A stretch of 4,160 nt of DNA from a virus (lineage: Duplodnaviria > Heunggongvirae > Uroviricota > Caudoviricetes), in the IMG/VR virus record IMGVR_UViG_3300030379_000187, one strand, 5' to 3'. Positions 1 to 2,573 of this stretch are shown here, one piece after another (positions within the stretch are counted from its first letter, which is position 1; the number at the start of each line of letters is the position of its first letter). The position numbers and the translations under genes are program-made. Below the pieces are notes generated by a model. That model was not told the origin of the DNA and did no database searches. It saw only the letters and a list, made by a program, of their open reading frames with translations.

Positions 1-205
1 CGTCAAAACGACTGGCGATATCGGCTTTGGAAAACACCAGCACCTGTTCACCAAATTCAGCCATGTACTGATTCCGTGTCTTATCTTCATCATCAACAAC
101 GATAAAAATTTTCCCGGTATAGCCAGCACGACGCAACGTCCGGTAAGTCAGAACTTTGTCCGGTCGCCCGTGAGTCAGAATAAAGGCGCAAAAATCATCA
201 CGCAT
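1..205 (-). CDS. Hypothetical phage protein, 5' end only (first ~68 codons; ORF continues past the window start)
   Basis: Minus-strand ATG at 205-203 preceded by a strong SD (GGAGGAGGA, + strand 209-217). The frame stays open to position 1, giving MRDDFCAFILTHGRPDKVLTYRTLRRAGYTGKIFIVVDDEDKTRNQYMAEFGEQVLVFSKADIASRFD... The ATG overlaps the TGA stop (200-198) of the upstream ORF as ATGCGTGA. Absent from the ORF track only because it has no stop inside the window. Function not recognised. Confidence 0.55.
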   Translation of the reverse strand, partial: MRDDFCAFILTHGRPDKVLTYRTLRRAGYTGKIFIVVDDEDKTRNQYMAEFGEQVLVFSKADIASRFD

Positions 206-572
206 ATTCCTCCTCCTCACCACCATGCATGATCTCCACCATGCGCTGCGTCATCCGGACAAATCCATTTTCAATAGCCTGCTGATAATCAATGATCACC
301 AGCGCCGACTCCTCGAAAAAACACTGAATTTCAGAGGGGGCGTGAGCGTAATAGTCCGCAATTCTGCTGAAATTAAACACCGTGTGACGTTCTGCCGCAC
401 ACAGGAGGAATTTCTCAATATCAGGCTCAAGGGACGCCGAACGTATCCGGCTGAGTTTTCGTATCGTCGTACAGTTCACTGATATCCGGTTTACCGCCCG
501 ACGGCTCATAAACAGGCGTATCAATTTTCGTCGTATACGGCTCCTCCTCATTTCCTGTACCGGGCAAAACAT
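198..572 (-). CDS. Small ORF of unknown function with uncertain start; possibly a frameshifted remnant or an overlapping gene (by position may correspond to ydaY of Rac)
   Basis: ORF-track frame 198-572. The first ~49 codons overlap the acidic 3' end of the ParB-like gene and translate as an Arg/Ser-rich string typical of out-of-frame reading, so only about 206-426 looks like real coding. No ATG lies between the upstream stop (427) and codon 107; the only in-frame ATGs (572, 551, 509) need an overlap of 83 nt or more, and the alternative is a GTG at 380-378 without a clear SD. Its stop overlaps the start of the next gene, which argues that it is translated. Confidence 0.4.
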   Translation of the reverse strand: MFCPVQEMRRSRIRRKLIRLFMSRRAVNRISVNCTTIRKLSRIRSASLEPDIEKFLLCAAERHTVFNFSRIADYYAHAPSEIQCFFEESALVIIDYQQAIENGFVRMTQRMVEIMHGGEEEEYA

Positions 573-978
573 CCGTCAACAGTTCATCAATTTCTGTCGG
601 GATGAAGCCTGTCAGGGAGACATCAAAATCAGCATTGATTAGGTCCGACAGCTCCATCCGCAACAGATCTTCATCCCAGCCAGCATTCATCGGCAGGCGA
701 TTATCTGCCAGGCGGTACGCCTTTTTCTGCTCATCCGTCAGGCCAGACAGAACAATGACCGGAACAGAATCCATTTTGAGCATTTCAGCCGCCATAACAC
801 GACCGTGACCCGCAATAATTTCGCCCTTTTCGTCAATCAGCACCGGATTAGTCCAGCCGAATTGCTTAATACTTTCTACCAGTTGTGCCACCTGCTCAGG
901 GCTGTGCGTCCTGGCGTTGTGCGCATACGGTGACAATTCTTGTAATGGGCGATAGACTATCTTTAATTTCTCGCTCAT
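427..978 (-). CDS. ParB N-terminal (ParB/sulfiredoxin-like) nuclease domain protein, 183 aa, with an acidic low-complexity C-terminal tail
   Basis: ATG at 978-976 with a weak SD (AAGG, 4 nt upstream). The N-terminal ~95 aa (KIVYRPLQELSPYAHNARTHSPEQVAQLVESIKQFGWTNPVLIDEKGEIIAGHGRVMAAEMLKMDSVPVIVLSGLTDEQKKAYRLADNRL) has the layout of the ParB N-terminal domain. The position just downstream of trkG matches where ynaK sits in Rac, but I assign that name only by recalled synteny. Confidence 0.85.
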   Translation of the reverse strand: MSEKLKIVYRPLQELSPYAHNARTHSPEQVAQLVESIKQFGWTNPVLIDEKGEIIAGHGRVMAAEMLKMDSVPVIVLSGLTDEQKKAYRLADNRLPMNAGWDEDLLRMELSDLINADFDVSLTGFIPTEIDELLTDVLPGTGNEEEPYTTKIDTPVYEPSGGKPDISELYDDTKTQPDTFGVP

Positions 979-990
979 ACAGCCTTGCTT

Positions 991-1029
991 TATGAATAAA
1001 ACGCACCCCAGCAGCCAGTGCTACTGGGG
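991..1029 (-). terminator. Candidate intrinsic terminator downstream of trkG
   Basis: Arms at + 1006-1014 and 1021-1029 form a 9-bp stem that is fully paired only in the minus-strand RNA, where position 1012/1023 becomes a G-U wobble (it is a C-A mismatch in the plus-strand RNA). It is followed on the minus strand by UGCGUUUUAUU. The U-tract is separated from the stem by 4 nt, so this is a weak terminator. Confidence 0.3.
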
Positions 1030-1115
1030 ACGGAGGTGTTGCTGGTAAAGTTAGGTATTGGATCAATGAGTGAGTCAACATAATATTAAACTCACAATTA
1101 TAAATCAGCCATATA

Positions 1116-2573
1116 TTAGGAGCGCCAAAAAAAACCTGAAAACAATATAATAACAGGATAAATTTCAAGGCGACCAAGAATCATAGCTATGCACATTAAA
1201 CATTTTGCAATGTCATTAAGCACTCCGAATGACGATGCAGTAGCCCCAAAACCTAATCCCATATTATTAATACATGCAGCCACTGTTGCAAATGATGTAA
1301 GAAAATCATATCCCATACCATTTAACACCAGTATAAAAAACACCGTGAAGAGAGTATAAAGAAAAAAGAAACTCCATACAGACCTCATTACACGATCTGT
1401 AACTATCTTCCCTCCTACATTTACACTCAACAACGCTCTGGGATGAGAAAGCTGATTTATCTCGTGTTTGCTTTGTTTGAAAAGTATAAGAAATCGAAGT
1501 GACTTAATTCCACCACAAGTTGAACCTATACATCCCCCAAAGAAACTTGACAACAGCAAAAACACTATCGTGTGCGTGGGCCAACTTGCATAATCCTGCG
1601 TAGCTAAACCATTATCAGTGAGCATGGAGCTGGCAAGAAAAAACGAATGAATAAAACTTCCATGCAAGTCATACATACCTATATGCCAGACCTGGAAAGA
1701 GGTAACAATGATCACCCCTAAGGCTATTAACAGAAAGAAACGAAGTTCAATATCTCTGATTAAAGGTTTTATCGTTTTCCTGCTAATAACAATATACCAA
1801 AGAGTGAAGTTGAAAGCCGATAGCAGGGAAAAAGAACCAGCCACCAGCTCAACCAAATAGTTATTAAAATATCCGATACTCTCGCTATGAGTTGAGAAAC
1901 CACCAAGCGAAACTGTGGAAATCCCGTGACAAATAGCATCAAACAAAGGCATTCCTGCAAGTCTATAACAGACAATACAAGCAATACCTAATAAAGAATA
2001 AGTTATCCACAGTGTCCGTGACGTATCGGCCAGGCGGGGAGTGAGTTTGTCATCCTTAAATGGCCCCGGCATTTCTGACTGATAAAGCTTTGCACCACCA
2101 ATACCCAATAATGGCAATACAGCAACCGCCAGAACAATAACTCCTAAACCACCTATAAAATTTAACTGTGACCGATAGTACAAATATGCCCGAGGTAATG
2201 AACTAACATCATCAATTACAGTTGCTCCTGTTGTTGTTATTCCAGAAACCCCTTCAAACAGAGCATCAATGAACGTTAAATTAAGTTCTGAGTCAATCCA
2301 TAAAGGGAATGCACTAATAACAGAAAACAAAATCCAAAACATTACAATTATAATAAACCCATCACGGGTACGTAATTGAATGCCAGATTTCTTAGTTGTA
2401 TACCACGCTCCGCCACCAATGCAAAAAAATATAACGAAAGTTATAAAGAAAACGAACAGGCTTTTTTCTTTATAAAACAATGCTACAACCATTGGTGGCA
2501 ACATTGAAAGACTATAGAGCCAAACCAGGAACCCACACATATGAGTAACAACTCTTACATGAGATGTATTCAT
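1116..2573 (-). CDS. trkG: TrkH/TrkG-family potassium uptake protein, 485 aa from the ATG at 2573; Rac-prophage-type trkG
   Basis: Polytopic membrane protein carrying the four pore-loop glycine motifs of the TrkH/KtrB superfamily (GITTTGATV, TVSLGGFST, MLTDNGLAT, NNMGLGFGA) and aligning with recalled E. coli TrkH along its length. The sequence from MNTSHVRVV onward matches my recollection of TrkG. The ORF-track start at 2591 is a TTG; the ATG at 2573-2571 gives the expected 485 aa. The gene is visibly AT-rich compared with its neighbours and lies directly downstream of Rz/Rz1, as trkG does in Rac. Confidence 0.9.
   Translation of the reverse strand: MNTSHVRVVTHMCGFLVWLYSLSMLPPMVVALFYKEKSLFVFFITFVIFFCIGGGAWYTTKKSGIQLRTRDGFIIIVMFWILFSVISAFPLWIDSELNLTFIDALFEGVSGITTTGATVIDDVSSLPRAYLYYRSQLNFIGGLGVIVLAVAVLPLLGIGGAKLYQSEMPGPFKDDKLTPRLADTSRTLWITYSLLGIACIVCYRLAGMPLFDAICHGISTVSLGGFSTHSESIGYFNNYLVELVAGSFSLLSAFNFTLWYIVISRKTIKPLIRDIELRFFLLIALGVIIVTSFQVWHIGMYDLHGSFIHSFFLASSMLTDNGLATQDYASWPTHTIVFLLLSSFFGGCIGSTCGGIKSLRFLILFKQSKHEINQLSHPRALLSVNVGGKIVTDRVMRSVWSFFFLYTLFTVFFILVLNGMGYDFLTSFATVAACINNMGLGFGATASSFGVLNDIAKCLMCIAMILGRLEIYPVIILFSGFFWRS

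What the first reader, a model, noticed from the sequence alone, without database searches (positions are those of the whole stretch)
198..572. Possible frameshift or pseudogenisation at the junction between the ParB-like gene and the next ORF
The ParB-like ORF stops at 427-429, yet the +1 frame immediately carries on as PDIEKFLLCAAERHTVFNFSRIADYY... for about 75 codons with no ATG. The in-frame ATGs upstream (572, 551, 509) would mean an 83-146 nt overlap, and that overlapping stretch translates as an Arg-rich string typical of the wrong frame of an acidic segment. The alternatives are a single ancestral gene of about 258 aa split by a 1-nt indel, a programmed frameshift, or a small gene with a non-ATG start.
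Basis: seen in the sequence. Interest (0 to 1): 0.45.

Follow-up and report, generated by a model that had tools for sequence, protein, structure and literature searches.

The report
Prophage ParB-like gene broken by deletion
A 263-codon ParB-like gene of an E. coli Rac-type prophage has lost 11 bases in this contig, which splits it into a truncated gene and an orphaned tail; this is an ordinary, recent, one-off gene-inactivating mutation, not programmed recoding or a hidden small gene.

Summary
On the minus strand the ParB-like ORF (978-427) stops at 429-427, and another frame stays open to 198.

The cause is an 11-bp deletion, not a 1-nt indel. Window 1-1100 is base-for-base identical to E. 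coli S30 except that TCAGGAGCTGA is missing. The junction lies in the TCAG at window 454-451.

- **Intact gene:** the gene is a single 263-aa ORF whose stop overlaps by 8 nt the start of a TET-associated glycosyltransferase (TAGT) gene.
- **Rarity:** all 957 complete E. coli genomes that cover the site keep the 11 bases. The junction 30-mer is absent from three large collections. The truncated protein is recorded on one 4160-nt JGI contig only.
- **Conservation:** homologues about 40% identical in Lactobacillus phages and a halovirus are also one ORF followed by TAGT. The orphaned frame matches their conserved C-terminal domain.
- **Stand-alone forms:** other phages encode that C-terminal module alone. 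Their starts lie upstream of a YTxKIxxPIYEP motif, which here stays in the ParB frame, so the deletion cuts through the module.

Verdict: recent frameshift pseudogenisation. Programmed frameshifting and a separate small gene are rejected. An IS3 element sits at the same spot in other strains, so the deletion could be an excision scar. Interest is low.

The parts
427..978 (-). Truncated ParB/Srx-N-terminal-domain gene: 176 native codons (M1-Q176), then 7 out-of-frame codons (PDTFGVP), then TGA at 429-427.
   Evidence: ORF list. Pfam ParB_N PF02195 E=7.9e-07, 29.5 bits against a cutoff of 26.3. Identical to codons 1-176 of the 263-aa gene of E. coli S30.
451..454 (-). Deletion junction. The single TCAG here replaces TCAGGAGCTGATCAG of the intact allele. 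11 bp are lost (gene nt 525-535 in the leftmost placement), removing codons E177-L178-I179 and shifting the frame by +1.
   Evidence: Alignments to S30 and CFSAN061771. The base-by-base comparison shows no other difference in window 1-1100.
198..452 (-). Orphaned 3' part of the same gene: codons S180-A263 of the intact protein plus the stop at 200-198. It encodes the conserved helical C-terminal domain (FLxxAAxRHxVFxFxxIADYYAHA...SALVIIDY..AIENGF).
   Evidence: Identical to the S30 gene. PHROG 620 positions 161-217, E=4e-13. Aligned with Lactobacillus phage and halovirus homologues and with 44 stand-alone module proteins.
453..572 (-). Spurious 5' extension of the mechanical ORF 198..572: the Arg-rich wrong-frame reading of the acidic ParB linker. 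Not coding in this frame. The ATGs at 572, 551 and 509 have no convincing Shine-Dalgarno sequence.
   Evidence: upstream 20-mers of every candidate start. In the intact gene this stretch is read in the ParB frame.
1..205 (-). 5' part of the downstream TET-associated glycosyltransferase (TAGT/GREB1-related) gene, which runs off the window. ATG at 205-203 overlaps the upstream stop by 8 nt (ATGCGTGA). A GGAGG Shine-Dalgarno sequence lies just upstream.
   Evidence: Pfam TAGT PF20691 E=8.9e-10 on the 68-aa fragment and E=7.6e-35 on the full 310-aa S30 protein. RefSeq annotation.
1006..1029 (-). Terminator-like hairpin between trkG and the ParB-like gene (context).
   Evidence: Consensus scan.
1116..2573 (-). 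trkG potassium transporter, a cargo gene between the lysis cassette and the ParB-like gene (context; marks the locus as a Rac-type prophage).
   Evidence: Pfam TrkH E=5e-145. RefSeq annotation of homologous loci.

Best explanation
The region is one gene inactivated by a recent frameshifting deletion.

**What the intact gene looks like (shown).** In Rac-type lambdoid prophages of E. coli, a 263-aa protein sits between trkG and the packaging genes. It has a ParB/Srx N-terminal domain, an acidic linker and a conserved C-terminal module. Its gene overlaps by 8 nt the start of a TET-associated glycosyltransferase (TAGT) gene.

**What happened here (shown).** In this contig, 11 bp (TCAGGAGCTGA) have been lost between two TCAG direct repeats. 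Translation from the normal start now leaves the native frame after Q176, adds 7 foreign residues and stops at 429-427. The last 84 codons remain perfectly conserved but sit in the +1 frame without a usable start.

**How it arose (inferred).** The deletion probably arose by slipped mispairing between the 4-bp repeats, either directly or during loss of an IS3 element that occupies the same spot in other strains.

**Consequences (inferred).**
- The C-terminal module is a dedicated partner of the glycosyltransferase, and ParB_N is an optional DNA-targeting head fused to it.
- The break falls inside that module: after the YTxKIxxPIYEP motif and three residues into its first predicted helix. The protein is therefore probably non-functional.
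- Translational coupling to TAGT is lost, although TAGT keeps its own GGAGG ribosome-binding site.
For: 1. Window 1-1100 equals E. coli S30 at every base except the 11-bp gap.
2. The S30 allele is a single 263-aa ORF, WP_001291094.1. That exact protein is recorded on at least 1000 contigs.
3. All 957 complete E. coli genomes covering the site retain the 11 bp; the best identity to a 120-nt probe is 91.6%, which equals 120/131.
4. The junction 30-mer is absent from GTDB representative genomes, IMG/VR and JGI metagenomes. The 183-aa product is recorded on one contig of 4160 nt only.
5. Homologues about 40% identical in Lactobacillus phages c5, phiLdb and jlb1, in a gut phage and in halovirus HHTV-2 align over 91-99% of the 263 aa as one tblastn piece. 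Each is followed by an overlapping TAGT gene.
6. PHROG 620 spans the whole intact protein (E=8.5e-91), and the orphaned 75 aa match its C-terminal end.
7. The downstream frame keeps all residues that are invariant across 45 module sequences, so no secondary decay has occurred.
8. The module gene lies immediately upstream of, and overlaps, TAGT in all 11 lineages examined.
9. In the AlphaFold2 model of a stand-alone module, residues 11-80 have block-mean pLDDT 85-98, so the segment upstream of the break is part of the fold.
10. Many other independent truncations of this gene exist in E. coli, including K-12 ynaK.
Against: - The allele is a singleton from a metagenome assembly, and I could not inspect the reads, so a technical origin cannot be formally excluded.
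- No expression data exist. Low-level restart or spontaneous +1 slippage at CCU-UGA-G (which would restore the downstream frame) cannot be ruled out from sequence alone.
- The proposed hairpin TCAG-GAG-CTGA is very weak: -1.4 kcal/mol, no better than shuffled sequences.
- The functional link between the module and TAGT rests on gene neighbourhood only.
Confidence: 0.85

Rival explanations
1. The 11-bp deletion is a technical artefact of sequencing or assembly of the metagenome contig, and the organism actually carries the intact 263-aa gene.
For: The allele is seen on a single 4160-nt JGI/IMG contig and nowhere else. The site is a known trouble spot for short-read assemblies in strains that carry IS3 there.
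Against: An 11-bp loss outside any homopolymer is not a typical read error. No de Bruijn path through either the intact or the IS3 allele can create the junction k-mers, because the shared repeat is only 4 bp (reasoning from the sequences). The deletion is flanked by direct repeats, as real slippage events are.
Confidence: 0.08
2. The deletion is real, but it is the scar of imprecise excision of an IS3 element rather than a direct 11-bp slippage. An IS3-bearing ancestor would have lost IS3, its 3-bp target duplication and 11 bp by slippage between the same two TCAG repeats. This is a variant of the best explanation, not an exclusive rival.
For: - IS3 (1258 bp, target duplication GAT) is inserted at gene nt 534-536 in strain AHM9C61I, inside the 15-nt stretch that contains the deletion.
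- Draft contigs from at least 49 collection blocks end at exactly that point.
- Chance co-location within a 792-nt gene is roughly 2% (my estimate).
- The IS3 allele still carries both TCAG repeats: one lies 7 nt left of the element, and the other begins in the last base of the right-hand copy of the target duplication.
Against: Flanking SNPs do not link the window to the IS3 lineage. S30, which lacks IS3, is identical over window 1-1100, whereas AHM9C61I differs at 1037 and 1622. The scenario needs two events instead of one.
Confidence: 0.15
3. Programmed +1 ribosomal frameshifting joins the two frames to make a full-length protein.
For: A +1 shift at CCU-UGA-G (432-426) would restore the downstream frame and replace only about 11 residues. 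This is read directly from the sequence.
Against: The frame break is not conserved; it is unique to this contig. All relatives are a single ORF. There is no known shift-prone motif or stimulatory Shine-Dalgarno sequence, and no Rfam match. The junction was created by a deletion, so it cannot be an evolved signal.
Confidence: 0.01
4. The region holds two genuine genes: a short ParB_N protein and a separately initiated small protein carrying the C-terminal domain, as in phages that encode the module alone.
For: Stand-alone module proteins of 115-148 aa exist directly upstream of TAGT, without ParB_N, in other phages.
Against: Those proteins start upstream of the conserved YTxKIxxPIYEP motif. In the window that motif is in the ParB frame, so any product of the 198..572 frame would lack it and would carry an Arg-rich nonsense N-terminus. 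None of the candidate starts (572, 551, 524, 509, 479) has a good Shine-Dalgarno sequence. No homologue is split at this position.
Confidence: 0.03

Closest known systems
E. coli 'ParB/Srx family N-terminal domain-containing protein' WP_001291094.1 (263 aa) of Rac-type prophages; PHROG 620
   Same: Same locus and same gene. It is 100% identical outside the deletion, has the same neighbours (lysis cassette, trkG, TAGT, terminase) and the same 8-nt overlap with TAGT.
   Different: The window lacks 11 bp, so the gene is split into a 183-aa truncated product and an untranslated 84-codon tail.
ynaK (b1365) of the E. coli K-12 Rac cryptic prophage
   Same: Orthologous 5' end: the first ~85 codons are about 99% identical. 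It is also a disrupted remnant of the 263-aa gene.
   Different: K-12 lost everything after codon ~85 through a large deletion that joined it to unrelated DNA. ydaY is not the C-terminal part. The window allele has a small internal deletion and keeps all remaining sequence.
IS3-disrupted allele of the same gene (e.g. E. coli AHM9C61I)
   Same: The gene is disrupted in the same 15-nt stretch, TCAGGAGCTGATCAG.
   Different: That allele has a 1258-bp insertion with a GAT duplication. The window has an 11-bp deletion and no IS sequence.
Chromosome/plasmid partition ParB (Spo0J/ParB/Noc)
   Same: Shares the ParB N-terminal (ParB/Srx) fold at the sequence level.
   Different: It scores below the TIGR00180 cutoff (38.5 against 58.45 bits). 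No HTH or dimerisation domain was detected. There is no parA partner; instead it is coupled to a glycosyltransferase next to the terminase genes. Its N-terminal domain is closest to the ParB_N heads of phage DNA methyltransferases, at about 50% identity.
TET/JBP-associated glycosyltransferase (TAGT) cassettes of phages
   Same: The downstream gene is a clear TAGT family member. The family is related to DNA-base glycosyltransferases of phages and kinetoplastids and to GREB1 (PMC7968844).
   Different: No TET/JBP gene was seen in any of the neighbourhoods examined. The constant partner is the ParB-linked C-terminal module instead.

Membership tests
Frameshift pseudogene (disrupted allele of an intact gene) | Close relatives carry one uninterrupted ORF spanning both pieces. 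| tested here: met
   263-aa ORF in S30 and CFSAN061771. All 957 complete genomes covering the site retain the 11 bp.
Frameshift pseudogene (disrupted allele of an intact gene) | A specific lesion whose length is not a multiple of 3 explains the frame break. | tested here: met
   11-bp deletion at window 451-455. It is the only difference from S30 in 1100 nt.
Frameshift pseudogene (disrupted allele of an intact gene) | Loss of the full-length protein in vivo. | not testable with these tools
   No expression or proteome data are available for the source organism.
Programmed ribosomal frameshift site | The two-frame arrangement is conserved among homologues. | tested here: not met
   The arrangement is unique to this contig, and homologues are a single ORF.
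Programmed ribosomal frameshift site | A slippery or shift-prone motif with a stimulatory element in the overlap. | tested here: not met
   Reading of 427-455 shows no X XXY YYZ motif and no prfB-like CUU UGA with an upstream Shine-Dalgarno sequence. No Rfam match.
ParB/Srx N-terminal domain superfamily (Pfam PF02195) | Match above the Pfam gathering score. | tested here: met
   29.5 bits against a cutoff of 26.3, residues 23-90.
Partition ParB/Spo0J (TIGR00180) | Match above the curated cutoff. | tested here: not met
   38.5 bits against a cutoff of 58.45, N-terminal domain only.
Partition ParB/Spo0J (TIGR00180) | A ParA partner in the operon. | tested here: not met
   The neighbours are trkG and TAGT.
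PHROG 620 (phage 'ParB-like partition protein', full-length architecture) | One polypeptide covers the whole profile, positions 3-217. | tested here: not met
   The intact S30 protein covers 3-217 (E=8.5e-91). The window's orphaned tail matches only positions 161-217, in a different frame from the ParB part.
TAGT glycosyltransferase (Pfam PF20691), downstream gene | Match above the gathering score. | tested here: met
   Window fragment 39.3 bits against a cutoff of 27.5. Full-length S30 orthologue 121 bits.
TAGT glycosyltransferase (Pfam PF20691), downstream gene | Association with a TET/JBP dioxygenase gene. | tested here: not met
   No TET/JBP gene was annotated or hit within the flanks viewed in the 11 loci. 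The flanks were limited to 2.5-4 kb.

The most novel reading that the evidence does not exclude
The roughly 115-aa C-terminal module (YTxKIxxPIYEP motif plus a helical domain with invariant R, Y, E and a SALVIID motif) may be an uncharacterised obligate partner subunit of TET-independent TAGT glycosyltransferases. These occur in tailed viruses of bacteria and archaea. The ParB_N head would be an optional DNA-targeting fusion. On this reading the window is a natural knock-out of that adaptor. A secondary possibility is that the TCAGGAGCTGATCAG site is a recurrent break point for both IS3 insertion and deletion.
Probability: 0.35. Interest if true: 0.4.

Novelty: already known. Interest (0 to 1): 0.12.

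Why it matters
There is little at stake for the finding itself. It is one more decayed accessory gene in a Rac-type prophage, and the intact gene is already in RefSeq.

It has three practical uses:
- The two ORFs should be annotated as one frameshifted pseudogene, not as a ParB gene plus a hypothetical protein.
- It exposes a recurring annotation problem. The intact 263-aa gene is labelled a partial 'ynaK' pseudogene in many complete genomes, because K-12's 87-aa remnant carries the ynaK name; I infer that as the reason.
- The comparison shows that the C-terminal module is strictly linked to TAGT glycosyltransferases across bacterial and archaeal viruses. That is a testable lead for anyone studying phage DNA glycosylation.

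Tried and rejected
- **K-12 ydaY as the missing C-terminal half: rejected.** Homology between K-12 and the intact gene ends at codon ~85, and ydaY is unrelated sequence.
- **Looking for the same deletion elsewhere: nothing found.** I searched for the exact junction 30-mer in GTDB genomes, IMG/VR and JGI metagenomes, and probed the complete E. coli genomes with a 120-nt sequence.
- **Recurrent contig ends at the 10-bp palindrome GCTGATCAGC as an inverted duplication (foldback): rejected.** No complete genome contains the foldback junction. The ends are explained by an IS3 insertion.
- **Using flanking SNPs to decide between direct deletion and IS3 excision: uninformative.**
- **Hairpin-promoted slippage: weak.** The stem gives only -1.4 kcal/mol, no better than shuffled sequences.
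- **Structure of the C-terminal module against the PDB: no significant match.** The best E-value was 2.5.
- **Literature searches (TAGT+ParB; ynaK): nothing relevant beyond the GREB1 paper.**
- **Protein search with the 85-aa tail returned only short proteins.** The absence of full-length hits is an artefact of the tool. The 263-aa protein sits in a cluster whose representative is the 310-aa TAGT protein, so that search says nothing about how common fused and stand-alone forms are.
- **Plus-strand ORFs 225..482 and 602..808: no family match. No Rfam family in the window.**

Full report
**What the window is.** All genes lie on the minus strand:
- holin (3884-3669)
- lysozyme (3669-3172)
- Rz with embedded Rz1 (3187-2711; 2955-2770)
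- the potassium transporter trkG (about 2573-1116)
- a ParB_N-containing ORF (978-427)
- the 198..572 frame
- the first 68 codons of a TET-associated glycosyltransferase, TAGT (205-2)

The same order occurs in Rac-type lambdoid prophages of E. coli, where terminase genes follow. In K-12 it is the rzpR-trkG-ynaK region of the cryptic prophage Rac. An exact-sequence look-up shows the 183-aa ORF product is recorded on a single JGI/IMG contig of 4160 nt, which is the length of this window.

**Checking the observation.** The stop at 429-427, the open second frame down to 198, the ATGs at 572, 551 and 509, the 75 codons from PDIEK... and the Arg-rich wrong-frame stretch are all as described. There are two minor corrections. 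ATGs do occur late in the 75 codons (254, 242, 230). The next gene starts at 205, not 206.

**What caused it.** Megablast of window 1-1100 against 5,426 complete E. coli genomes gave 943 full-length hits. The best were 99.0% identical, spanning 1111 bases in the record against 1100 in the query. Alignment and a base-by-base comparison show that the window equals strain S30 at every position except for an 11-bp gap. The intact sequence AAAAC-TCAGGAGCTGA-TCAGCCGG has become AAAAC-TCAGCCGG. The junction is the TCAG at window 454-451.

In S30 the gene is a single 263-aa ORF (WP_001291094.1). Its stop overlaps the TAGT start by 8 nt, ATGCGTGA. In the window the ParB frame keeps residues 1-176, then reads PDTFGVP and stops. 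Codons 180-263 are intact but lie in the +1 frame.

**How common is the allele?**
- A 120-nt probe centred on the junction matched 957 complete genomes over at least 80% of its length. None exceeded 91.6% identity (120/131), so all keep the 11 bp.
- The junction 30-mer is absent from one-genome-per-species GTDB contigs, from IMG/VR and from the JGI metagenome collection.
- The intact 263-aa protein is recorded on at least 1000 contigs.
- The rest of the gene shows no secondary decay. All residues invariant across 45 module sequences are retained.

The event is therefore private and recent.

**Is one ORF the ancestral state at depth?**
- tblastn against about 50,000 phage genomes found 25 records covering at least 80% of the 263 aa.
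- These include Lactobacillus phages c5, phiLdb, PMBT4 and jlb1, a human-gut phage and the archaeal halovirus HHTV-2. Identities are about 40-44%, each as one uninterrupted piece.
- In c5, jlb1, HHTV-2 and the gut phage the next, overlapping gene is a TAGT.
- PHROG 620 covers the whole intact protein (E=8.5e-91). The window's orphaned 75 aa match its positions 161-217 (E=4e-13).
- The multiple alignment places the window's downstream frame on the conserved motif FLxxAAxRHxVFxYxxIADYYAHAxxExQxLMExSALVIIDYxxAIxNGF.

**A complication: the stand-alone module.** Searching with the 85-aa tail returned about 50 short proteins (95-148 aa) with no Pfam domain. They begin 0-45 residues upstream of a conserved YTxKIxxPIYEPxG motif and then carry the same helical domain. 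Their genes always sit directly upstream of, and overlap, a TAGT gene. In five lineages there is no ParB_N gene immediately upstream (L008, L011/L012, L019, L020, L021). In one lineage ParB_N and the module are two overlapping ORFs separated at a G8 run (L009/L010).

Two conclusions follow:
1. The functional unit linked to TAGT is the C-terminal module, and ParB_N is an optional N-terminal fusion. This is an inference from 11 of 11 neighbourhoods.
2. These proteins do not rescue the 'separate small gene' reading for the window. The deletion falls inside the module: after the PVYEP motif and three residues into the first predicted helix.

An AlphaFold2 model of a stand-alone module has high confidence over residues 11-80, which includes the segment upstream of the break. 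It has no significant PDB neighbour. The absence of full-length proteins is a tool artefact. The 263-aa protein belongs to a cluster represented by the 310-aa TAGT protein.

**Origin of the deletion.** The lost segment lies between two TCAG repeats, the classic signature of slipped mispairing. The intervening TCAG-GAG-CTGA could form a hairpin, but it is negligible energetically. There is also a link to IS3:
- Many draft contigs encode a 178-aa partial protein ending ...TQEL, and they terminate at exactly this point.
- A complete genome (AHM9C61I) shows why. IS3 (1258 bp, GAT duplication) is inserted at gene nt 534-536, inside the same 15-nt stretch.
- The window allele could therefore be an imprecise IS3 excision scar that used the same TCAG repeats.
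- Flanking SNPs cannot decide, and the direct deletion from an S30-like allele is the simpler route.
- A foldback explanation for the contig ends was tested and rejected.

**Artefact or real?** I cannot see the reads. An 11-bp loss outside any homopolymer, bounded by direct repeats, is not a usual sequencing error. No assembler path through the intact or IS3 allele can generate the junction k-mers. I rate an artefact at about 8%.

**Programmed frameshift or internal start?** Neither is supported.
- The frame break is unique to this contig. There is no slippery motif and no Rfam hit.
- A +1 slip at CCU-UGA-G would happen to restore the frame. It would be an accident of a new junction, not an evolved signal.
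- None of the in-frame starts (572, 551, 524, 509, 479) has a convincing Shine-Dalgarno sequence. Any product would begin with nonsense sequence.

**Consequences (inferred).**
- The truncated protein keeps the ParB_N domain and the acidic linker but loses the TAGT-linked domain.
- Ribosomes now terminate 221 nt before the TAGT start, so translational coupling is lost. TAGT keeps its own GGAGG site.
- The gene is frequently destroyed in E. coli prophages. Breakpoints occur at many positions, including K-12 ynaK at codon ~85 and BL21. This is consistent with a dispensable prophage accessory function.

**Comparison with known families.**
- The N-terminal domain is a bona fide ParB/Srx domain.
- The protein is not a partition ParB. 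It scores below the TIGR00180 cutoff and has no ParA partner. No HTH domain was detected.
- Its head is closest to the ParB_N domains fused to phage DNA methyltransferases.
- The partner is a TAGT family glycosyltransferase, related to phage and kinetoplastid DNA-base glycosyltransferases and to GREB1 (PMC7968844). No TET/JBP gene was seen nearby.

**Verdict.** This is an ordinary, recent, strain-specific frameshift pseudogene. Interest is low. The by-product worth keeping is the strict module-TAGT linkage.

Noticed in passing
L017 4073-5330 (E. coli AHM9C61I); corresponds to window 451-455: IS3 (1258 bp, 3-bp GAT target duplication) is inserted in the same 15-nt stretch, TCAGGAGCTGATCAG, where the window has its deletion. 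Draft contigs from at least 49 collection blocks end at exactly this point (L013-L016). The site contains a 10-bp palindrome, GCTGATCAGC.
   Followed up: yes
L009 916-1723 and L010 373-1180: In a metagenomic phage, ParB_N (141 aa) and the C-terminal module (147 aa) are two overlapping ORFs whose frames switch at a G8 homopolymer. The protein is carried on 6 contigs, and the split was read in two of them, from independent assemblies (ERZ24773540 and ERZ28613772). This could be a sequencing error, a fixed split or phase variation.
   Followed up: partly
L002 3623-3880 and L018 4683-4940 (complete E. coli genomes): RefSeq/PGAP annotates only the first 258 nt of the gene as a 'ynaK ... partial' pseudogene and leaves the rest unannotated. 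In L002 the full 263-aa ORF was translated and found intact; L018 carries the same partial label but was not translated. My reading is that the 87-aa K-12 remnant serves as the naming reference.
   Followed up: yes
L003 3878-4481 (K-12 MG1655 ynaK/ydaY): K-12 ynaK is the first ~85 codons of the 263-aa gene, joined by a large deletion to unrelated DNA. ydaY is not the missing C-terminal part.
   Followed up: yes
L001, L004-L012, L019-L021: The C-terminal module gene (fused to ParB_N or stand-alone) lies directly upstream of, and overlaps, a TAGT (PF20691) gene in all 11 lineages examined, from E. coli prophages to a halovirus. No TET/JBP gene was seen in the flanks viewed.
   Followed up: partly
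model m0beb76dcec30 (P0002, 115 aa), residues 82-88: The most conserved motif of the module, SALVIID, is predicted as non-helical with lower confidence (block means 72 and 59), while the helices around residues 11-80 score 85-98. It may be a strand that pairs with a partner protein.
   Followed up: no
window 1006-1029 (-) and 1116-2573 (-): trkG sits as a cargo gene between the lysis cassette and the ParB-like gene. It is followed by a strong terminator-like hairpin (10-bp stem, 7 GC pairs) just upstream of the ParB-like start.
   Followed up: no
protein collection, cluster 2: The 90%-identity cluster that holds the 263-aa ParB-like protein is represented by the unrelated 310-aa TAGT protein. 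This presumably arose through a read-through fusion member. It hides the full-length protein from word-based homology searches.
   Followed up: partly
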